Both the position numbers and the translations under genes were made by a program. A stretch of DNA of 64,000 nt, taken from the NCBI GenBank assembly GCA_964420065.1, contig CAYQQK010000007.1:5462-69461 (forward strand), given 5' to 3'. Origin of the DNA: an uncultured Syntrophomonadaceae bacterium. Lineage in GTDB: Bacteria > Bacillota > Dethiobacteria > DTU022. Shown here piece by piece: positions 17,675 to 26,781 of the stretch. The notes beneath the pieces were generated by a model. That model saw nothing but the letters and a program-made list of their open reading frames with translations, did no database searches and had not been told where the DNA came from. Numbering within the stretch: position 1 is the stretch's first letter; every line of letters starts with the position of its first letter.

Positions 17675-17759
17675 TGGTGTCGGAGGGGGGACTTGAACCC
17701 CCACGGTGTAAACCACACGCCCCTCAAACGTGCGCGTCTGCCTGTTCCGCCACTCCGAC
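17675..17759 (-). tRNA. tRNA-Leu(GAG)
   Basis: GTCGGAG acceptor, anticodon loop TTGAGGG, long variable arm, GTTCAAGTC T-loop, encoded CCA. Confidence 0.97.
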
Positions 17760-17998: not shown

Positions 17999-19339
17999 AT
18001 GTTATCCCGGCAGCTTGGCACCTACATTGCCTCACTGCGTTTTACCGATTTGCCCCCGGAAGTGGTGGCGGCGGTCAGAACGGCCGTGATGGACTGGCTC
18101 GGTTCGGTTGTGGGAGGGTCGGTCGAGGAGCCGGCCCGGATTACCGCCCGGGTGGTCGAGCGGAGTGGAGGCGCCCCCCAGGCCAGCCTGATCGGTTTTG
18201 AAGCAAGATCTTCGGCCTCGGGGGCGGCTCTGGTTAACGGAACATCGTGCCACATCCTGGAACTGGACGATCTGCACCGCAGTTCAATCCTTCACGCCGC
18301 GGCGCCCGTGATCTCCGCTGCGGCTGCAGCGGCGGAGATGGCCGGTCTTTCCGGAAAAGAATTCATCGCCGCCGTGGTTGCCGGTTACGAAACGGGTATT
18401 CGGATCGCGGAAGCGGTGACGCCGTCCCACTATTATTACTGGCATACTACCGCCACTTGCGGCACCTTTGGGGCCGCGGCGGCCGCGGCCCGGGCAATCG
18501 GCCTGGATGCAGCCCGGACGGCGCATGCCCTGGGCAATGCCGGTTCCCAGGCGGCCGGCCTGTGGGAATTTTTGCGGGACGGAGCGATGACCAAGCACCT
18601 GCATGCCGGGAAAGCCGCGATGAACGGCTTGCTGGCGGCGTTGTTGGCCCGGGAGGGTTTTACCGGGGCTTCGGCCATTCTGGAGGGGGAGAAAGGTTTC
18701 TTCAGGGCGACCGCCCCGGAATATGAAACAGGGAAGGTTACCGCCGGTTTGGGGCGGGAGTACCGCCTGCTCGAAAATAGTTACAAGATCTATCCCTCTT
18801 GCCGCCATACCCACAGCGGAACGGACCTGGCGATCAAGATGGCCCGGGAGGGGCTTGATCCGGAAACAGTTGAGGCGATCCGGATTAAAACCTATGGCGG
18901 GGCGCTAGATCTGGTCGGAAACGCCAAGCCGTCCACTCCGTACCAGGCCAAGTTCAGCTATCCCTACTGTGTTTGCCATGCCCTGGTGCACGGCAAGCTG
19001 GATCTGGATAGTTTCGATGTAACGTGGGGGATCGAGCCGGCGGTGCAGCGCTTGCTTTCCCGCTGCCGGGTTGAAGCCGATCCGGAGATTGAAAAATTGT
19101 ACCCGCAGCGCTGGCCGGCCGGGCTTGAAGTTGATCTGGTGGACGGGCAGGTTTTATATGAACGGACCGACTACCCCTGTGGCGATCCGGAAAATCCGGC
19201 CTCACCGGAGGAGATGCAGCGAAAATTCGGCGGGCTGGCCCGCCGGGTTTGGCCCAAGGGGAAAATTGGCCGGGTACTGGAGATGGTGGGCCGGTTGGAA
19301 GACCTGGCGCAGATTGGAGATCTTTTTAACGGAACGTAA
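17999..19339 (+). CDS. MmgE/PrpD family protein (2-methylcitrate dehydratase fold)
   Basis: HILELDDLH, HAAAPV, WHTTATCG, KHLHAG, KIYPSCRHTH, AKFSYPY; ATG 17999 after AAGGAG. The track start at 17693 overlaps the tRNA. Confidence 0.9.
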   Translation: MLSRQLGTYIASLRFTDLPPEVVAAVRTAVMDWLGSVVGGSVEEPARITARVVERSGGAPQASLIGFEARSSASGAALVNGTSCHILELDDLHRSSILHAAAPVISAAAAAAEMAGLSGKEFIAAVVAGYETGIRIAEAVTPSHYYYWHTTATCGTFGAAAAAARAIGLDAARTAHALGNAGSQAAGLWEFLRDGAMTKHLHAGKAAMNGLLAALLAREGFTGASAILEGEKGFFRATAPEYETGKVTAGLGREYRLLENSYKIYPSCRHTHSGTDLAIKMAREGLDPETVEAIRIKTYGGALDLVGNAKPSTPYQAKFSYPYCVCHALVHGKLDLDSFDVTWGIEPAVQRLLSRCRVEADPEIEKLYPQRWPAGLEVDLVDGQVLYERTDYPCGDPENPASPEEMQRKFGGLARRVWPKGKIGRVLEMVGRLEDLAQIGDLFNGT

Positions 19340-19396
19340 CCGGTTCCTGGGATGAGAAACAACTGCCGCAGGTGATCTATGGGGAGGCAATAGACA

Positions 19397-20074
19397 ATGG
19401 TAAAAACAGTTTCAGTTTATTACATGGGCAAAGAGTACCTGGTGCCGGAGGGGGTGACCATTCAGAAAGCAATTGAATATTCCGGTTACCGGATGATTCG
19501 GGGCTGCGGTTGCCGGGGCGGTTTCTGCGGGAGTTGTGCCACGATCTACCGGATCCCCGGCGATCACCGGTTAAAAGTAGGGATGGCCTGTCAGACCAAG
19601 GTCGAACCGGGAATGACTTTTTTTATCATGCCTTACTATCCCATCCAAAAACCACATTATGAACTGGCGGTCATTGATGATCCGGCCAAGGCGCTGCACC
19701 GGCTCTACCCGGAGTTGTTCAGTTGCCTGGGCTGCAGCGCCTGCACCAAAATATGTTCACAGGATCTGGAAGTCATGGACTACATCGCCGCGGCCCAGCG
19801 GGGCGATCTGGCCGGGACGGCCGAGTTGTCGTTGGACTGCATCATGTGCGGCCTTTGTGCTTCCCGGTGCCTGGCCCAACTGGTGCCGTACCAGATTGCC
19901 ATGACCGCCCGCCGTCTGCATGCTTTCTTCAATTTGACCCGCCCTCCTTACGTGGGTGAACGCATTCGTGAAGTAGACGAGGGAAAGTATGCTCCTGAAA
20001 TTGACCGGTTGATGGTCGCAGATATCGAGCATCTTCAAAAGCTTTATGCGGCCCGGGAGATCGAAAGCATTTAG
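19397..20074 (+). CDS. Iron-sulfur protein (SdhB/FrdB/TfrB-like; 2Fe-2S plus 4Fe-4S dicluster)
   Basis: GCGCRGGFCGSCA...MACQT; CLGCSACTKIC; CIMCGLCASRC. Confidence 0.85.
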   Translation: MVKTVSVYYMGKEYLVPEGVTIQKAIEYSGYRMIRGCGCRGGFCGSCATIYRIPGDHRLKVGMACQTKVEPGMTFFIMPYYPIQKPHYELAVIDDPAKALHRLYPELFSCLGCSACTKICSQDLEVMDYIAAAQRGDLAGTAELSLDCIMCGLCASRCLAQLVPYQIAMTARRLHAFFNLTRPPYVGERIREVDEGKYAPEIDRLMVADIEHLQKLYAAREIESI

Positions 20075-20096
20075 GATACAAGGAGAGAACAAAACC

Positions 20097-21719
20097 ATGT
20101 CATATTCAGGTCACTTTCAAACATCACTGGAAAAGCTCAAGGCAACGCGCCGCTTCCGTCGCACCCAGGAAATCCCCCGTCTGGGTGATGACGAGCGAAT
20201 GCGGCTCATTTCCGCTTTTCACCCTGATTATCGCGCCGAGGGGATGTGTCCCTTGAACCTGGGTCCCAACCGGGGGGAGCCGGTGCCGGTGGAATTTGCC
20301 CGGGTGATCGAAGCGTACAGCATTTGTGATCCGGTCAAGCTGCGCCTGGAAGAGCCCGATTACAGAACCGATGTTTTGGTTGTCGGCGGTGGCGGTGCCG
20401 GGGTTGCCGCCGCCTTGACGGCCCGGGAAGAAGGACTGAAAGTGCTTTTGGCGACCAAGTTACGGGTGGGAGATGCCAATACGATCATGGCCGAGGGGGG
20501 CATGTGTTCGGCGGTGCATCCCGGCGATAATCCTTACCTGCACTACCTGGATACGATCGGCGGCGGCCATTACACCAATGTGCCCGATCTGGTCAAAGCC
20601 CTGGTTTTGGACGGGCCGGAAGTGGCCGGCTGGTTGATGAGTCTGGGGGTCATGTTTGACTATGAACCCGGGGGCATTCTGAAACTGAATCACTGCGGGG
20701 GGCACTCGCGCAAGCGGATGCTTTCGTGCAAGGACTTGACCGGGATGGAGTTGATGCGGGTTCTCCGGGATGAGCTCGAAAACCGTTCCATCCCCCGCCT
20801 GGAGTTCACGGCGGCGGTGGATCTGCTTCTGGACGAAAACGGGAGATGCGCCGGGGCGGTGCTCTTTAACCTGGAAACGGGAGAGATGATGACGGTGCAT
20901 GCGGGGGCGGTGATCCTCGCGACCGGGGGCATCGGCCGGCTGCATATCCAGGATTTTCCCACGACCAACCATTACGGGGCGACCGCGGACGGGCTGGTCC
21001 TGGCCTATCGTGCCGGGGCACGCCTGATTCACATGGACAGTATCCAGTACCACCCTACCGGGGCGGTCTGGCCGGAACAGTTGATGGGCCAGCTTATTAC
21101 CGAGGTCATGCGCGGCCATGGCGCTCAACTGGTCAATGCCGAAGGGGAACGGTTTGTAAACGAGCTGGAATGCCGCGATACCTGCGCTTCGGCCTGCATC
21201 CGGGAATGTGTTGAACGAAATAAAGGGATTGAAACCCCGACCGGCACACTCGGGGTATGGCTCGATACGCCGTTGATCGAGGGGGTTGAAAATCATTTTG
21301 TCGGGATATACACCCGTTTCAAAAAGTACGAGATCGATATTCGTGATGAACCCATCCTGATCTATCCGACCCAGCATTACCAGAACGGCGGTCTGATGAT
21401 CAACCCCTGGGGCGAAACAACCGTGGGCGGTCTTTTTGCGGCCGGGGAGGTGGCCGGGGGGGTGCAGGGCAAGAACCGTCTGGCCGGGAACAGCCTGCTC
21501 GATCTATTTGTTTTCGGACGGAGGGCTGCCCGGCGGGCCGCTGCAGCAGCACGCGATCACAGTCCCGGCAAACCTTCCCTGGAACACGTTTGGGCCTATC
21601 ACCGGGAGCTGGAACTATTGGGGGTGGAGCACAGTCGCCGCTCGCCGCTGCTGTTGCCCAACTATGTCCGGCCGGAGACAAAGGCGCGGCGTCTCGATGA
21701 AAACCCGGTCTGCTTGTAG
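20097..21719 (+). CDS. SdhA/FrdA/NadB-family flavoprotein, soluble, probably non-covalent FAD
   Basis: DVLVVGGGGAG, ANTIMAEGG (Asn at the covalent-His position), GGHSRKR, QYHPTG, LITEVMRG, ECRD, HYQNGG, NRLAGNSL; about 85-aa N-terminal extension; ATG 20097 after AGGAGAG. Confidence 0.85.
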   Translation: MSYSGHFQTSLEKLKATRRFRRTQEIPRLGDDERMRLISAFHPDYRAEGMCPLNLGPNRGEPVPVEFARVIEAYSICDPVKLRLEEPDYRTDVLVVGGGGAGVAAALTAREEGLKVLLATKLRVGDANTIMAEGGMCSAVHPGDNPYLHYLDTIGGGHYTNVPDLVKALVLDGPEVAGWLMSLGVMFDYEPGGILKLNHCGGHSRKRMLSCKDLTGMELMRVLRDELENRSIPRLEFTAAVDLLLDENGRCAGAVLFNLETGEMMTVHAGAVILATGGIGRLHIQDFPTTNHYGATADGLVLAYRAGARLIHMDSIQYHPTGAVWPEQLMGQLITEVMRGHGAQLVNAEGERFVNELECRDTCASACIRECVERNKGIETPTGTLGVWLDTPLIEGVENHFVGIYTRFKKYEIDIRDEPILIYPTQHYQNGGLMINPWGETTVGGLFAAGEVAGGVQGKNRLAGNSLLDLFVFGRRAARRAAAAARDHSPGKPSLEHVWAYHRELELLGVEHSRRSPLLLPNYVRPETKARRLDENPVCL

Positions 21720-21828
21720 GGGACGGTTCTTGCGGATGGTTAAAATAATTCTATAACGGTTGCCATTGGCAACTTCAACAATTTGATAACATTGGGGATT
21801 TGATATTTCACCGCAAGAACCGTCCCCT
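21718..21828. repeat. REPIN/MITE-like element: perfect 18-bp terminal inverted repeat with AT-rich core
   Basis: AGGGGACGGTTCTTGCGG (21718-21735) and CCGCAAGAACCGTCCCCT (21811-21828); 75-nt spacer with 23 G+C (about 31%) containing the palindrome GTTGCCA-T-TGGCAAC. Confidence 0.85.
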
Positions 21829-23231
21829 CATCTGCCTCGAAGGCGGGCCTGGTATCGATCGTCCCGTAAAACGAAAAAGAGAGCGGCGGCGGCCAGATCT
21901 GCCGCGCCGCCGGGGCTCAAGCCGAGACGGAAGAATTCGTGCTTCAATGAGGCCAGTTTCGTCCACCCCTTTTCGGTAAACACTCCGCCTGCAGCAAGGA
22001 TGGCGGCCGCCCTTTCCCGGGCCAGGTGCAAGGCGGCAATTCCCCCACGCCCGACAAGAGTAGTGTCCTCGGCCCGGGCCATCGCCGCCAGGAGAGCCTG
22101 GAGAGCAGCGCTGTTGAGGGAGGCGCCGCCGGCCAAAGTGACCCGGGCGGCGGGCAAAGCCGCTTCAAAAACGGTTGCAAAACCGCTTTCAGCCTCACCA
22201 CGCACCCCGCCAAGCCCGTACTTTCGGTATGCTTTCTCTCCGGCGCTTGACCGGTCGGCTGTGGGGGAGCGTTTCAGTTCAGTTTCAACCAAACCCCGGG
22301 TCATGGCCCGGATCAGGCGGCGCAACTTTTCTTCTTCGGTCCGGCCATTCAGTGCCCCCAGGGCGGACAGGATCAAACCCATGACAAAAATGTAACCTTT
22401 TTGTGTATTAACCCCACGGGTGGCCCGCAACATTTTGCGTTCACCGCAGGCTCCGACAGCTCGGGCCTGTACGAAAAGCCGGTCGGGAAAACGGTATTTT
22501 TCGCCGGCGCTGTAAAGCGCCGTAAAAACTTCGGTCAGTGCGGTCGAGCTAAGGATGAAGGTCCCCAGGTCCATGTCCCGGTGAGTGCCGTTTTCCCGGC
22601 TGGAAACCAGCCCCGGTTTAGGATAGGCTGATACTTCCAAAAGGGCCGCGGCAACGGCTGTCTCTCCGGCCCGCCGGGCGTCCCGGCTGGAAGGCTGCCC
22701 CAGGAAGTAATCTTCCAGGTGTCGCCGGAAGGCTCCGGTTACGGCGGGGCGCGGGTGTAGGCCTGCGCGATGGCACACTTTGGCCGGTCCGCCGCAAAGG
22801 ATGCAGGGGCGGGGTGGCAGGTTTAATTCTTTTCGGGAAAGGGGACGCCCGGCGGGGCCGATCACGTCCAGATCCAGAAAGAAACCGAGCGGCGACTGCT
22901 CTTCCAGCTCCATCACGGTTTGCTTCACCTTCAGGGCATCACCGGGCAGGGCAAAGACCCGCCATCCTTCCGGGGCGACGTGGGTTTCACGGGTTTGCGC
23001 CAAAAGGGGCTGTGTGGCTGCCAAGTCCGCAGCTTCGGCTAGAAGCGCCCGGCCTTCCGGGGAGGGCAGCAGTTCTCCGGGCAAGCGCAGGCTGATTGAG
23101 AGAAGCGGAGGGCCATACCGTGCGAGCAGTGTCCGCTGCACCCCAAAGCGTTCTTCCTTTTGCCGCAGCGTTTCCCGCTTTGTGACGGAGTCCGGTTTCC
23201 GGGGATGCCGGAGGTGTTCGGAAGTGCTCAT
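21828..23231 (-). CDS. citXG: CitX-CitG fusion (holo-ACP synthase plus triphosphoribosyl-dephospho-CoA synthase)
   Basis: N-terminal ERF..QRTLL...LSISLRLPG, FLDLDV, RPCILCG (CitX); LLEVSAYPKPGLVS, GVNTQKG, GGVRGEA, LSPGGAADL (CitG). Confidence 0.85.
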   Translation of the reverse strand: MSTSEHLRHPRKPDSVTKRETLRQKEERFGVQRTLLARYGPPLLSISLRLPGELLPSPEGRALLAEAADLAATQPLLAQTRETHVAPEGWRVFALPGDALKVKQTVMELEEQSPLGFFLDLDVIGPAGRPLSRKELNLPPRPCILCGGPAKVCHRAGLHPRPAVTGAFRRHLEDYFLGQPSSRDARRAGETAVAAALLEVSAYPKPGLVSSRENGTHRDMDLGTFILSSTALTEVFTALYSAGEKYRFPDRLFVQARAVGACGERKMLRATRGVNTQKGYIFVMGLILSALGALNGRTEEEKLRRLIRAMTRGLVETELKRSPTADRSSAGEKAYRKYGLGGVRGEAESGFATVFEAALPAARVTLAGGASLNSAALQALLAAMARAEDTTLVGRGGIAALHLARERAAAILAAGGVFTEKGWTKLASLKHEFFRLGLSPGGAADLAAAALFFVLRDDRYQARLRGR

Positions 23232-24043
23232 AAGGTGTTTGCCTCCAGGCAGGGCAGCCCTGCTTCACGGAACAGGGGCCGGGCCCGGCTGTTGTAGGTT
23301 TCGGCACCGGGCATGAGCACTACGCCGCTCAGGGAAAGGGCGGCGGCTGCTTTGATAAAAAGCCGGGCCTGAAGGAGGGCCCAGGCGCGGGGAGCTGCAG
23401 CCGCATCTTCAATGTAGTAGGATGGGAACAAGGAACAGGGTCGGAAATAATCTTCTCCTTCATGGCAAAGCAGACCCGGGGGGGGTGACTGCACAGCAGG
23501 CGCCCCGGCCAGGATCAGGACTGCCGGTTTGGACCCGGCCAGGGAGAGAAAAGCACGGATTTGTTGGGGGGACAGGTTTTCATGGGTAACTGCCGCCACC
23601 GCCTCCGGGGGGACAATTTTCCGGAACCGGCTCAGGTACCGGTCAAAGGAACCGAAGCCGGCTTCCAGCAGCACCGACCACGGTTCAGCCCGGCTAACTT
23701 CACGAAAACCCATCACCCGGAAAAAAGGCGACGCTTCGGGAGAGGTGTAAACGATGGTATGAACGATGCCCCGGAGGCGTTGCCGGGCTATCGCCCGTCC
23801 GACTATGTCACGGCCGGTACCGGTGCCCCGCAGATCCGGGCGCACGGCTACGCCCTTGATAATTTTGTTCCGAAAGGAAGCTGTCGCCGCCGGTCCGGCG
23901 TCATCCCAAAAAACAAGGGTCAGATCCGACGGTCCTTCCCAGCGCAACCCGGCGCCGGCGAGCAGTTCACCGGCACCGGGCGGCGCATCCATGGCGCCGG
24001 CCCATGATTTTTCTTCAAAACGGTGTTGAAAAAAGTATCCCAA
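23228..24043 (-). CDS. citC: Degenerate CitC ([citrate lyase] ligase)-like protein: GNAT domain intact, nucleotidyltransferase motif lost
   Basis: IKGVAVRPDLRGTGTG (GNAT motif A), YTSP, GFREV, LFPSYY, TYN; canonical MNANPFTxGH replaced by VTHENLSPQQ; only 271 aa; inside the cit cluster. Confidence 0.7.
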   Translation of the reverse strand: MGYFFQHRFEEKSWAGAMDAPPGAGELLAGAGLRWEGPSDLTLVFWDDAGPAATASFRNKIIKGVAVRPDLRGTGTGRDIVGRAIARQRLRGIVHTIVYTSPEASPFFRVMGFREVSRAEPWSVLLEAGFGSFDRYLSRFRKIVPPEAVAAVTHENLSPQQIRAFLSLAGSKPAVLILAGAPAVQSPPPGLLCHEGEDYFRPCSLFPSYYIEDAAAAPRAWALLQARLFIKAAAALSLSGVVLMPGAETYNSRARPLFREAGLPCLEANTL

Positions 24044-24069
24044 GAGAACTGGCTCCCTGCAAAACCGGC

Positions 24070-25626
24070 TTAATCGGCCATTTTGTGGATTACATCGATC
24101 ACACTGCCGTTACGGTACTCGACCACGCCGATGATCTCTTGTGCCAATGCGGGTGACCGGGGCCGGCCGGTAACCCTTTCAATGGCGGCCTTGAGGTCAT
24201 GGATCTCCTTTACCGGCAAGCCTGCTTCGACCAGCCGTTCCCGTAAGTCCGCGCGACGCGGGTTCACGGCAATGCCGAGTTCGGTGACCACACAATCTAC
24301 CGTTTCGCCAGGCGTGGTCAGGGTTACAACCCGATCAACAATGATCGGCAGGCGCCCGCGCCAGGCCGGGGTGACGACGATGGCCAGTTTGGCTCCGGCG
24401 GCGGTATCGGCATGTCCTCCGGAGCCGCCGATGATCAACCCGTTTGAAGCCGTGTGGGCGTTGACGTTGAAGGCGGTATCGACTTCAATCGCACTTAAGA
24501 GCATGATATCCAGGCTGTTGACGGCGCACCCTTTGGCATGGATGTTGGCGTAGCGTGAAGAAGAGATCTCTACATGGCGCGGGTTGTCCCGGAGCGAGTG
24601 GATCGAGGGGAGGTCGAAAGTTTGGGTGTCCAGAAGACACTTGAAAAAGCCGTCTTGCAGCAATTCGACCAGGTAAGATGTAATCCCGCCCAGGCCGAAT
24701 GATCCGCCTACCCCTGATTGCTCCATTCTTTTCCTTAAAAACCGAGCTACCGCCAGGGAGACTCCACCGGTTCCGGTCTGGAAAGAAACCCCATCCTGAA
24801 GCAACCCCGATGCGGCGATAACCTTGGCTGCCTGCGCGGCGATGGTCAGCCCAAGTGGATCGCGAATCATGCGCACCGCGCCGGTGGTAATACCGGCCGG
24901 ATCTCCAACCCGTTCCATGCGGACAACATAGTCTACCTCGCTTTCATCGGCGCTGGTCGGAACGAGCGGATAGGGCAGCAGGTGGTCGGTCAGAACCACC
25001 ACTTTCCGGGCATAACGGCTGTCGGAAAGGCAGTAGCCCAGGGAACCGCAGGCCAACGGGCCGCTGACGCCGTTGAAATTACCGGCCGGATCGGCTGCCG
25101 GGGCGCCGATAAAAGCGACATCGATCTTTTCCTCTCCGGCCTCGATGGCCCGATCCCGTCCGCCGTGGGTCCGGAAAACTATGGGGAAGGGGAATTCGCC
25201 CCGGCAGGCCGCTTCCGCAACCGGACCGTTCATAAAATTGCAGGACAGCCGTGTCACCGTGCCGCGTCGCATATAATCGACCAGCGGAGCGTGAACGGGG
25301 AAAACCGAACTGATTGCCACTTTCAGTTCCCTTATACCCAGGGAGGAGACGGTTTCCATGACCGCGTTGACCACCGCATCACCATTCCGGAAGTGGTGAT
25401 GAAAGGAAATGGTCATGCCGTCTTCCAGCCCGCACCGGCGGATTGCTTCGGCGATGTCGGGCAGCAATTTATTATCTCCCGGACGGGCCCGGCCGCCGGT
25501 CCACGCCGCGGCCTTTTGCGGTTCCGGTTCAACGGTGAACGGTCCCGTGTACGGGATGACGTCCTTGTATCCTTTTATTTTTCCCGGCAGTTCCCGGCCG
25601 GCGGAATTAACCAGCATCGTTTTCAT
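24070..25626 (-). CDS. citF: Citrate lyase alpha chain (CoA/ACP transferase)
   Basis: LEDGMTISFHHHFRNGD, FRTHGGRDRAI, SFQTGTGG, GGSGGHADTAAGAKL, VVTELGIAVNP. Confidence 0.95.
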   Translation of the reverse strand: MKTMLVNSAGRELPGKIKGYKDVIPYTGPFTVEPEPQKAAAWTGGRARPGDNKLLPDIAEAIRRCGLEDGMTISFHHHFRNGDAVVNAVMETVSSLGIRELKVAISSVFPVHAPLVDYMRRGTVTRLSCNFMNGPVAEAACRGEFPFPIVFRTHGGRDRAIEAGEEKIDVAFIGAPAADPAGNFNGVSGPLACGSLGYCLSDSRYARKVVVLTDHLLPYPLVPTSADESEVDYVVRMERVGDPAGITTGAVRMIRDPLGLTIAAQAAKVIAASGLLQDGVSFQTGTGGVSLAVARFLRKRMEQSGVGGSFGLGGITSYLVELLQDGFFKCLLDTQTFDLPSIHSLRDNPRHVEISSSRYANIHAKGCAVNSLDIMLLSAIEVDTAFNVNAHTASNGLIIGGSGGHADTAAGAKLAIVVTPAWRGRLPIIVDRVVTLTTPGETVDCVVTELGIAVNPRRADLRERLVEAGLPVKEIHDLKAAIERVTGRPRSPALAQEIIGVVEYRNGSVIDVIHKMAD

Positions 25627-26461
25627 CCTCCCCGGCCGCTTCCAAAACCCGGCGTGCTTTCCGGATCAGCGGTTTGTCGATCATTTTACCCTTGAACTGT
25701 ACCGCACCCAAACCTTTTTCCGCCGCTTCACGAGCTGCCCGGAGCAGCTGCCGCGCTTCCTCTATTTCGGCGGCCGCCGGAGTAAAGAGCGGCTGGATCA
25801 CTTCAATGTGGAGCGGGCTGATTGCGGCCTTGCCGGTAAACCCGGTTTCCCTGGCCCGGATTGTGTCCCGGCGCAGGCCTTCCAGATCGTCGATGACGAT
25901 AAAAGGCGTGTCGATCGGTTGCACCCCGGCGGCGCAGCAGGCCAACGCGATCGTAAACCGGGCGAAGGTGATCTCGTCACCGCCGGGAGTACGGGTCAGG
26001 CCCATCTCTGCGGTTAAATCCTCCGCACCGAGCATGAGCCCCCTGATTCGGGATGAAGCTGTCGCCGTGGCGAAGGCTTGTTGCAAGCCGATCGGAGTTT
26101 CGATAATACCGATGATCTTCTTGTCCGTGCCTTCCAGAGCCAGATCGAGCTCCCGGATCGTTTCCGGATCGGATTTGGGGAGCACAATCGTGCTTACGAT
26201 CGGCATACGGGTTACCACGGCCAGGTCTTCCTCTCCCCAGGGGGTATTTAAAGGGTTGATCCGGACCGTGACCGTTTTATCACCAAAAGGCAGTGCGGCG
26301 CAGGCGTGCTTGACCAGGATGCGACTGTTTTCCTTTTCCGTGACGGCAACGGCGTCCTCCAGGTCAAGGATCACTGCATCCACCGGCAATACAGCGGCGG
26401 TGCGAAGCATGGCCGGGCTGCTGCCCGGTACAAACAGGTAAACACGTTGGGTTTCGCTCAT
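25607..26461 (-). CDS. citE: Citrate lyase beta chain (citryl-ACP lyase)
   Basis: LFVPGSSP, DAVILDLEDAV, VRINP, IETP, LGAEDL, GFTGKAAISP, GKMIDKP. Confidence 0.92.
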   Translation of the reverse strand: MSETQRVYLFVPGSSPAMLRTAAVLPVDAVILDLEDAVAVTEKENSRILVKHACAALPFGDKTVTVRINPLNTPWGEEDLAVVTRMPIVSTIVLPKSDPETIRELDLALEGTDKKIIGIIETPIGLQQAFATATASSRIRGLMLGAEDLTAEMGLTRTPGGDEITFARFTIALACCAAGVQPIDTPFIVIDDLEGLRRDTIRARETGFTGKAAISPLHIEVIQPLFTPAAAEIEEARQLLRAAREAAEKGLGAVQFKGKMIDKPLIRKARRVLEAAGEDENDAG

Positions 26462-26781
26462 GACAGTACACCTGCTTTTCGGGCCCGCATTACGGCCGCC
26501 TCAACCCGGGCGACAACAGTGCAATCGAGGGCGCCGTTGTCTTCAGCGTAGATCGTGACCCCGGTCACTTTCAATTCGCGCAGGGTTGTTTCAATTTGAG
26601 CCCGAATATCTTCGCCAAAATGTGTCTCCAGTTCGCCGGTAAGGTTGATCCGGTTCCCCTTTTCTCCGGTGCAAGTAAGTGTGATCAGAATGTCGCTTGA
26701 TTCCAGGGATCCGGCCTGGGCTTGATTCGCGTCCACTTTTATCACCGTCCCATTGTTAATGTTGATCCTGATCTTACACAC
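26458..26781 (-). CDS. citD: Citrate lyase acyl carrier protein (gamma chain); true start may be some codons downstream
   Basis: AGSLESSD prosthetic-group attachment motif, HFGEDI, DNGALDC..VARVEAA. Confidence 0.9.
   Translation of the reverse strand: MCKIRININNGTVIKVDANQAQAGSLESSDILITLTCTGEKGNRINLTGELETHFGEDIRAQIETTLRELKVTGVTIYAEDNGALDCTVVARVEAAVMRARKAGVLS

What the first reader, a model, noticed from the sequence alone, without database searches (positions are those of the whole stretch)
17999..26781. PrpD plus anchorless Frd/Sdh-like pair converging on citrate lyase: possible tricarboxylate pathway
Seen: MmgE/PrpD, an Fe-S protein and a flavoprotein form one operon facing citDEF-C-XG. The flavoprotein keeps the dicarboxylate-site residues (QYH, TE..R, RD, HY, NRL) but has Asn at the covalent-FAD His, an N-terminal extension and no membrane anchor genes. 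Established: the PrpD fold (de)hydrates citrate/methylcitrate-type substrates; non-covalent FAD Frd-family enzymes have low potential. Inference: a route such as tricarballylate or aconitate to citrate to acetate plus oxaloacetate, or soluble fumarate/aconitate reduction as an electron sink.
Basis: inference. Interest (0 to 1): 0.55.

Follow-up and report, generated by a model that had tools for sequence, protein, structure and literature searches.

The report
Anaerobic free-acid methylsuccinate breakdown cluster
These eight genes in an uncultured anaerobic bacterium most likely break down the branched five-carbon acid methylsuccinate (not citrate, as first proposed) to pyruvate and acetate, using a specialised soluble copy of fumarate reductase; I found this route in papers only as an engineered pathway in E. 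coli.

Summary
The anatomy is confirmed and the two gene blocks are co-conserved, but the substrate is probably C5, not citrate. The PrpD-family protein is not a methylcitrate dehydratase. It is 44% identical to the Pseudomonas methylsuccinate isomerase and has all seven site residues in exact register. The flavoprotein/Fe-S pair is a second, sporadic paralogue of an anchorless fumarate reductase, with a reshaped pocket (Phe119-equivalent to Cys, Met to Ala). Elsewhere the same three-gene module sits beside three interchangeable lyases: CitEF, a citramalyl-CoA-lyase-like enzyme, or orthologues of the solved citramalate lyase CmlAB. The last two also serve methylaspartate operons. This genome has glutamate mutase and methylaspartase and no other citramalate lyase candidate. 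Best reading (0.7): methylsuccinate racemase plus soluble methylsuccinate/mesaconate oxidoreductase, an unlinked class I fumarase, and CitDEF as citramalate lyase. Direction and electron partner are unresolved and nothing was assayed. The scan already inferred this free-acid route on other DNA, with a membrane Sdh; the soluble enzyme plus CitDEF form is what this locus adds.

The parts
17999..19339 (+). MmgE/PrpD-family protein, 446 aa; predicted (R)/(S)-methylsuccinate isomerase (racemase)
   Evidence: Pfam; far below the prpD cut-off; 44% to the P. aeruginosa PA0881 orthologue, and H85, E88, H99, Y145, H149, K199, K263 match its H88, E91, H102, Y148, H152, K202, K266
19397..20074 (+). Fe-S subunit, 225 aa, with a [2Fe-2S] motif and two four-cysteine [4Fe-4S] motifs
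   Evidence: Cys 37/39/44/47/65, 110-120 and 148-158; the last cluster has four Cys where E. coli SdhB/FrdB have three; 49% to the paralogue on contig C2
20097..21719 (+). Soluble Frd/Sdh-family flavoprotein, 540 aa, non-covalent FAD predicted; predicted methylsuccinate/mesaconate oxidoreductase
   Evidence: Catalytic residues kept; N128, C200, A463; own clade with 100 support; model pLDDT 87.6 with the Frd/Sdh fold
21717..21830 (.). Short element with perfect 18-bp terminal inverted repeats between the two convergent stop codons
   Evidence: The repeat ends recur on contigs C4, C13 and C24
21828..23231 (-). CitX-CitG fusion, 467 aa (prosthetic-group synthesis and transfer)
   Evidence: Pfam CitX and CitG
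23228..24043 (-). Shortened CitC-like protein, 271 aa; GNAT part kept, ligase motifs lost
   Evidence: TIGR00124 47.7 bits against a cut-off of 262; alignment to E. coli CitC lacks the NPFTxGH motif and the C-terminal part
24070..25626 (-). CitF-type CoA/ACP-transferase (lyase alpha subunit), 518 aa
   Evidence: TIGR01584 over the cut-off; sister to the CitF of module-bearing relatives, support 100
25607..26461 (-). CitE-type C-C lyase (beta subunit), 284 aa; predicted citramalyl-ACP/CoA lyase
   Evidence: TIGR01588 222 bits against a cut-off of 443; sister to the CitE of module-bearing relatives, support 99
26458..26781 (-). CitD acyl-carrier protein (the true start may be a few codons in)
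   Evidence: TIGR01608 over the cut-off; the domain starts at residue 19-20

Best explanation
The cluster is an anaerobic route for methylsuccinate that acts on the free acid. (1) The PrpD-family enzyme interconverts (R)- and (S)-methylsuccinate with a His99/Tyr145 two-base mechanism. (2) The flavoprotein and Fe-S protein form a soluble Frd-type enzyme whose widened pocket takes the methyl group, and it interconverts one enantiomer with mesaconate. (3) An unlinked class I fumarase (contig C2; linked in some homologous loci) hydrates mesaconate to (S)-citramalate. (4) CitDEF, matured by CitXG, acts as citramalate lyase and gives pyruvate plus acetate. In this genome the same lyase also completes glutamate fermentation by the methylaspartate pathway. 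Shown: genes, residues, clades, co-conservation and partner swapping. Inferred: every substrate, the direction of step 2 (oxidation favoured, about 60:40) and the electron partner (candidate: the HdrABC-MvhD-Flx-like cluster on contig C1).
For: Racemase: seven of seven PA0881 site residues at a constant offset of 3 (residues from PMC12290011). It scores 568 bits on a profile of 15 homologues that sit beside methylsuccinyl-CoA dehydrogenase (Mcd) orthologues; the two Pseudomonas-type cluster members score 521 and 495 when left out, PrpDs near the aconitase-type clade 397-414 or less, and E. coli PrpD 47. Partner swap at the dehydrogenase: of 80 metagenome loci of this PrpD subfamily, 13 have an Mcd orthologue (63-71% to the PA0879 orthologue), 19 have an Sdh/Frd-type enzyme, none has both, and none has aconitase, PrpF or IDH within 7 kb. 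Partner swap at the lyase: L040 has the same prpD-FeS-flavoprotein order directly behind cmlA-cmlB (535 and 100 bits to the solved citramalate lyase, PDB 9ERQ/9EVF), and its flavoprotein and PrpD group with the window's. In L002/4/7/12 the lyase is 70-73% identical to the L039 lyase, as are those found in or near glutamate mutase-methylaspartase operons, and all group with Pseudomonas/Burkholderia Ccl at support 99. Fumarase genes are linked in L039, L096 and L100. Pocket: Phe119 is Cys here and Leu or Val in 8 PrpD-linked membrane SdhAs; E. coli SdhA F119L arose in evolution on methylsuccinate and doubles catalytic efficiency (10.1101/2025.11.12.688011; 10.64898/2026.01.16.699985). Genome: glutamate mutase and methylaspartase are present, while CmlAB, family III CoA-transferase, PrpF and a second CitE were not found. 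citDEF homologues are the proposed citramalate lyase genes (PMC4682846).
Against: No assay. Identity to PA0881 is only 44%, against 64% between two cluster-type isomerases, and Tyr265 replaces its His268, so a related substituted succinate is possible. The clade holding both had support 99 in FastTree but 92 in a short IQ-TREE run. Trees and residues of CitE/CitF do not separate citrate from citramalate lyases, and the nearest outside CitF lies in a citrate-type operon. Eight or so PrpD-linked SdhAs keep Phe119. None of the 13 other module-bearing family genomes has methylaspartase. The window has no transporter or fumarase gene. Non-covalent FAD, Glu133 and two [4Fe-4S] clusters favour reduction (own knowledge), which fits poorly with oxidation. 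The exclusion count (Fisher p 0.03) is over related, often short contigs and overstates independence.
Confidence: 0.7

Rival explanations
1. One reading: the flavoprotein oxidises tricarballylate to trans-aconitate (or reduces aconitate), PrpD hydrates aconitate to citrate, and citrate lyase gives acetate plus oxaloacetate.
For: The nearest sister flavoprotein clade (57-62% identity) sits with aconitase, PrpF, IDH, Tct transporters and, in L099, citD-citE-citF. L042 has Tct transporter genes. The genome has a YbhJ-like aconitase-family protein 57% identical to ones beside citDEF and a malic enzyme. CitF passes the citrate lyase cut-off.
Against: Tricarballylate is achiral, so a racemase-type site has no role. 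The characterised isomerase was inactive on cis- and trans-aconitate (PMC12290011). No aconitase, PrpF or IDH in 80 loci of this PrpD subfamily, and no PrpF over the cut-off in five module genomes. The sister clade has a different, larger pocket (Ala200/Gly463). Identifiable lyase partners are citramalate-type.
Confidence: 0.09
2. Same chemistry on another chiral 2-substituted succinate (for example ethylsuccinate or a carboxyalkyl succinate), or on several of them, giving acetate plus a larger 2-oxoacid.
For: Moderate identity to PA0881 and the clade-specific Tyr265. PMC12290011 notes that the isomerase site could take larger substrates. 2-Oxoacid:ferredoxin oxidoreductase genes precede several loci.
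Against: CmlAB orthologues and methylaspartate-linked lyases point to citramalate itself. The same PrpD subfamily pairs with close Mcd orthologues.
Confidence: 0.13
3. The pair is only a redundant fumarate reductase or an L-aspartate oxidase, and its link to prpD and cit is incidental.
For: All catalytic residues are kept; the best family hits are TfrA and NadB models.
Against: All hits are below their cut-offs. A separate paralogue lies in a TRAP-fumarase-malic enzyme operon and occurs in 54 of 73 family genomes. This clade is sporadic (14 of 73), lies beside PrpD and a C-C lyase wherever the contig is long enough, and differs at several pocket positions. Cys200 stands where NadB has its Glu.
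Confidence: 0.04
4. Direction variant of the best explanation: the pair works mainly as a mesaconate reductase, an electron sink for mesaconate made from glutamate or taken up, while the rest of the mesaconate is hydrated and cleaved (disproportionation, parallel to the fumarate operon on C2). This confidence overlaps with the best explanation.
For: Low-potential design (Asn128, Glu133, two [4Fe-4S]). The related Hydrogenobacter enzyme is irreversible towards reduction (PMC13147460). This genome makes mesaconate.
Against: A racemase is of little use if methylsuccinate is an end product. The other module-bearing relatives lack methylaspartase and many have a TAXI-TRAP importer next to the operon. 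The enzyme takes the place of a dehydrogenase.
Confidence: 0.3

Closest known systems
Itaconate/methylsuccinate degradation cluster of Pseudomonas aeruginosa and Cupriavidus necator (Msi, Ict, Mcd, Ich, Ccl; PMC12290011, PMC9875883)
   Same: MmgE/PrpD-family isomerase with the same site residues; CoA-transferase plus CitE-family lyase; same predicted end products.
   Different: No Mcd orthologue in 73 family genomes at E 1e-100 and no Ich in this genome. Oxidation and hydration are predicted on the free acids, by an Frd-type enzyme and a fumarase, with CoA/ACP activation only at citramalate. Anaerobic Bacillota host.
Engineered methylsuccinate module in E. coli (SdhA F119L, FumA, citramalate lyase Cml; bioRxiv 10.64898/2026.01.16.699985 and 10.1101/2025.11.12.688011)
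   Same: Same reaction order: methylsuccinate, mesaconate, (S)-citramalate, pyruvate plus acetate; loss of Phe119.
   Different: Here it is natural, has a dedicated soluble paralogue with non-covalent FAD, adds a racemase, and uses CitDEF.
Citramalate lyase of Clostridium tetanomorphum and citrate lyase CitDEF-CXG
   Same: Alpha, beta and ACP subunits with CitX/CitG.
   Different: Not beside glutamate mutase and not in a citrate-transporter operon. CitC is truncated. Five close relatives have only CitE and CitF, with no ACP or CitG found.
Soluble NADH-dependent fumarate reductase FrdABCDE of Hydrogenobacter thermophilus and the 'incomplete' AB fumarate reductases (PMC13147460)
   Same: Anchorless flavoprotein plus Fe-S pair of the Frd family.
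   Different: No C, D or E genes in the cluster; altered pocket; catabolic context. A direct sequence comparison could not be made.
Iminodisuccinate epimerase (PDB 2HP0/2HP3)
   Same: Best solved relative (E 8e-40); the same His99/Tyr145 pair.
   Different: Asp where the window and Msi have Glu88; different substrate and context.

Membership tests
2-methylcitrate dehydratase PrpD | Reaches the curated prpD models and resembles E. coli PrpD | tested here: not met
   20.9 bits against 458; 20% identity to E. coli PrpD
(S)-(R)-methylsuccinate isomerase (Msi) | Catalytic His and Tyr plus five carboxylate-binding residues | tested here: met
   Seven of seven, offset 3 from PA0881 numbering; invariant in 120 homologues
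(S)-(R)-methylsuccinate isomerase (Msi) | Falls in the clade of PA0881 and Mcd-adjacent homologues | tested here: inconclusive
   Support 99 (FastTree) and 92 (short IQ-TREE); 568 bits on my profile of Mcd-adjacent proteins; the clade also holds uncharacterised proteins
(S)-(R)-methylsuccinate isomerase (Msi) | Gene lies next to methylsuccinyl-CoA dehydrogenase (criterion of PMC12290011) | tested here: not met
   An Frd-type pair is there instead; no Mcd orthologue found in 73 family genomes
(S)-(R)-methylsuccinate isomerase (Msi) | Score over 550 on the authors' HMM; measured racemisation | not testable with these tools
   HMM not available; needs an assay
Complex II (SdhCDAB / FrdABCD) | Dicarboxylate catalytic residues | tested here: met
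   Eight residues map onto E. coli SdhA
Complex II (SdhCDAB / FrdABCD) | Covalent-FAD His, [3Fe-4S] cluster and membrane anchor | tested here: not met
   Asn128; four-Cys third cluster and no anchor homologue found
L-aspartate oxidase NadB | Curated cut-off and the Glu of the REGGH motif | tested here: not met
   305 bits against 452.75; Cys200 at that position
Thiol:fumarate reductase TfrAB | TfrA cut-off; TfrB with CCG domains | tested here: not met
   338 bits against 718, and 25.7 against 385; 225-aa Fe-S protein with no CCG domain
Hydrogenobacter NADH-dependent FrdABCDE | C, D and E subunit genes in the operon | tested here: not met
   Only the A and B types are in the cluster
Hydrogenobacter NADH-dependent FrdABCDE | Close sequence similarity of subunit A | not tested
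   Sequence and paper not available
Citrate lyase CitDEF | Alpha, beta and gamma subunits with CitX/G | tested here: met
   (beta subunit below the citE equivalog cut-off)
Citrate lyase CitDEF | Intact acetate:SH-lyase ligase CitC | tested here: not met
   Truncated, motif lost
Citrate lyase versus citramalate lyase | Substrate specificity from sequence | tested here: inconclusive
   Citrate-context and methylaspartate-context proteins are intermixed; the assignment rests on context

The most novel reading that the evidence does not exclude
Anaerobic Bacillota have a natural, dedicated, soluble methylsuccinate/mesaconate oxidoreductase and a complete free-acid methylsuccinate pathway. The large anchorless Frd family has split into at least three substrate classes that can be read from two pocket positions: Gly200/Met463 for fumarate, Cys200/Ala463 for methylsuccinate, and Ala200/Gly463 for tricarballylate or aconitate.
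Probability: 0.5. Interest if true: 0.72.

Novelty: new variant of a known kind. Interest (0 to 1): 0.56.

Why it matters
PMC12290011 says that gut anaerobes make methylsuccinate by reducing itaconate and describes only an aerobic, CoA-ester route for its use. This cluster offers an anaerobic sink. It also supplies a natural candidate for the methylsuccinate dehydrogenase that synthetic CO2-fixation projects now obtain from SdhA F119L, which is only about twice as efficient as wild type and is inhibited by succinate. It warns that 'citrate lyase', 'PrpD' and 'fumarate reductase' labels can hide C5 metabolism. It gives a testable residue rule for an abundant, unannotated flavoprotein family, including a candidate anaerobic tricarballylate/aconitate oxidoreductase in the sister clade.

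Tried and rejected
CitE and CitF trees and column comparisons, meant to tell citrate from citramalate lyase, were not decisive. Co-occurrence with methylaspartase in the family was negative (8 of 73 genomes, and only this one also has the module), so the module does not depend on glutamate fermentation. The promoter/terminator scan was at chance level. L115 and L117 show an independent Met-to-Ala change beside cmlAB-like genes, but their PrpD belongs to another clade (349-376 bits), so I give them little weight. The first tree run timed out and the careful IQ-TREE run did not finish. The Miura 2008 paper was not held. The window protein was not on record in the contig look-up. No complex prediction was run, because an Frd A/B pair would pass by likeness to solved structures. 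Ten paper searches found no description of a natural free-acid methylsuccinate pathway or of this flavoprotein clade; the library lacks most subscription journals.
Full report
Observation. The window is part of contig C7 of a 1.86-Mb, 96% complete genome. The closest named relatives of the flavoprotein come from assemblies labelled Syntrophomonadaceae or Bacillota; from the sample codes I take these to be soda-lake Dethiobacteria, which is my own knowledge and was not tested. The plus-strand block (MmgE/PrpD, Fe-S protein, flavoprotein) and the minus-strand block (citD, citE, citF, short citC, citX-citG fusion) are as described. The flavoprotein keeps the eight dicarboxylate-site residues of E. 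coli SdhA and has Asn at the covalent His. These traits and the roughly 90-residue N-terminal extension are shared by a family of thousands of proteins.

Two paralogues. The genome has a second pair, 52% and 49% identical, in an operon with a TAXI-TRAP transporter, class I fumarase and malic enzyme. That type occurs in 54 of 73 family genomes. The window's type (67-73% identity) occurs in 14. The window's pair is therefore a specialised extra copy.

Co-conservation. CitF is found in 10 of the 73 genomes, and in 9 it is on the same contig as the window-type flavoprotein. In these relatives the order is prpD, Fe-S, flavoprotein, citE, citF on one strand, usually facing a TAXI-TRAP transporter. 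Five of them were searched for the ACP and CitG and none was found, so there CitE and CitF probably work on free CoA esters. Four genomes without CitF have a CitE-like lyase just before prpD, and in the three read in full a family III CoA-transferase precedes it. One (G010) is too fragmented to tell. Several of these loci were fetched twice by different tools and the genomes are kin, so the counts are not independent.

The PrpD-family protein is racemase-like. It is far from true PrpD; its best solved relatives are IDS epimerase and cis-aconitate decarboxylase. PMC12290011 shows that PA0881 is a methylsuccinate isomerase that uses His102 and Tyr148 and is inactive on aconitates. The orthologue fetched from a P. 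aeruginosa itaconate/methylsuccinate cluster is 44% identical, and its seven site residues match the window's at a constant offset of three. In 80 metagenome loci of this subfamily the neighbour is either a close Mcd orthologue (13 loci) or an Sdh/Frd-type enzyme (19 loci), never both, and no aconitase, PrpF or IDH was found within 7 kb. On a profile of the Mcd-adjacent proteins the window protein scores 568 bits, above the two Pseudomonas-type members left out in turn. I read the Sdh/Frd enzyme as a substitute for Mcd.

The pocket. The family splits by motif and by context. Type 1 (Gly200, Met463) sits with fumarase, malic enzyme, succinyl-CoA synthetase and Hdr genes. Type 2 (Ala200, Gly463) sits with aconitase, PrpF, IDH and Tct transporters, and in L099 with citDEF. 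The window's type (Cys200, Ala463) sits with the racemase-like PrpD; its two outermost members have Ala200/Gly463, so the rule is not exact. Position 200 is SdhA Phe119. Unrelated membrane SdhAs next to this PrpD in Carboxydocella, Desulfosporosinus orientis, Calderihabitans and five metagenome loci have Leu or Val there, although another group keeps Phe. F119L arose in E. coli evolved on methylsuccinate and doubles catalytic efficiency. That these changes widen the pocket for a methyl group is inference.

The lyase slot decides the substrate. CitE/CitF sequences alone do not. But the module's alternative partners can be identified. In L040 the same three genes follow an AtuA/DUF4387 pair that matches the solved citramalate lyase CmlA and CmlB; the same pair follows methylaspartase in 10 of 30 loci. 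The CitE-like lyase of the second architecture is 70-73% identical to the L039 lyase, as are those in or near glutamate mutase-methylaspartase operons of the same family, and these group with Pseudomonas Ccl. Ca. Formimonas has citDEF, TRAP, a more distant PrpD, the pair and fumarase in one operon. The common intermediate of these contexts is (S)-citramalate. This genome has glmS, glmL, glmE and mal with no lyase beside them, and the window's citE is the only hit for any lyase query. PMC4682846 states that citramalate lyase genes are annotated as citrate lyase and that class I fumarases act as mesaconases.

Mechanism and limits. Proposed route: racemisation, then oxidation to mesaconate, hydration by the C2 fumarase, and cleavage by CitDEF to pyruvate and acetate. 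Direction is open. Non-covalent FAD and two [4Fe-4S] clusters suit reduction (own knowledge), while the racemase, the importer and the replacement of Mcd suit oxidation. The genome has an HdrB-HdrC-HdrA-MvhD-Flx-like cluster on C1, and type 1 pairs often lie beside such genes, so electron bifurcation or confurcation through it is a plausible but untested link. With CitC truncated, the ACP could be primed by acetyl-CoA through CitF or through the remaining GNAT domain; this too is inference.

Novelty. Each step has a precedent. The CoA-ester route is published, and the free-acid route is published as an engineered module. I found no paper on a natural version. I reached the methylsuccinate reading. 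The look-up then showed three earlier scan reports with the same route on other DNA, built on membrane Sdh and an ATP-dependent ligase; these are unchecked notes and not independent evidence. The CmlAB identification came as a lead and was verified here. What this locus adds is a soluble, anchorless paralogue as the oxidoreductase, CitDEF as the lyase, and the residue-context split of the family. Verdict: a real, conserved pathway cluster and a new variant of a known kind; interest 0.56.

Noticed in passing
L044, L098, L099, L101, L104: Sister flavoprotein clade (Ala200/Gly463) in operons with aconitase, PrpF, IDH, Tct or TRAP transporters, HdrBC or a cytochrome b/Fe-S anchor, and citDEF in L099: a candidate anaerobic tricarballylate/aconitate oxidoreductase.
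   Followed up: partly
window 23228-24043: The CitC-like protein lacks the NPFTxGH motif and the C-terminal part, and five relatives lack CitD and CitG altogether; the lyase may be shifting from an ACP-bound to a free-CoA mode.
   Followed up: partly
window 21717-21830: Element with 18-bp perfect terminal inverted repeats at the junction where relatives have citE directly after the flavoprotein on the same strand; the repeat ends recur on three other contigs, so it may mark the rearrangement.
   Followed up: partly
G000 C11:44148-49580 (L086, L087): glmS-glmL-glmE-mal operon followed by a conserved 303-aa P-loop protein of unknown function, with no fumarase or lyase gene.
   Followed up: partly
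L205, L210, L211, L092, L094: A SucCD-like ligase with a Citrate_bind domain plus a Ccl-like lyase occurs both near methylaspartate operons and in PrpD-Sdh clusters: a candidate citramalate-CoA ligase.
   Followed up: partly
L026-L035: A stand-alone PrpD paralogue (about 46% identity) common in the family; nine sequences in the alignment have Arg at both His99 and Lys263, which suggests a non-racemase function.
   Followed up: no
L115, L117: Type 1 flavoproteins with an independent Met463-to-Ala change, between cmlAB-like genes and a PrpD of another clade.
   Followed up: partly
G000 C14:15143-17521 (L216): Stand-alone 792-aa YbhJ-like aconitase-family protein, 57% identical to ones beside citDEF and Tct genes in other Bacillota; it may be this genome's aconitase.
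   Followed up: partly
L099: The citD-FeS-flavoprotein-anchor-citE-citF-aconitase operon appears twice as an inverted duplicate around a LysR gene; either an assembly artefact or a real duplication (L199 shows a similar mirror).
   Followed up: no
window 17675-17759: tRNA-Leu(GAG) on the minus strand just upstream of prpD, with a perfect sigma-70 consensus at 17804-17776 that points at the tRNA.
   Followed up: no
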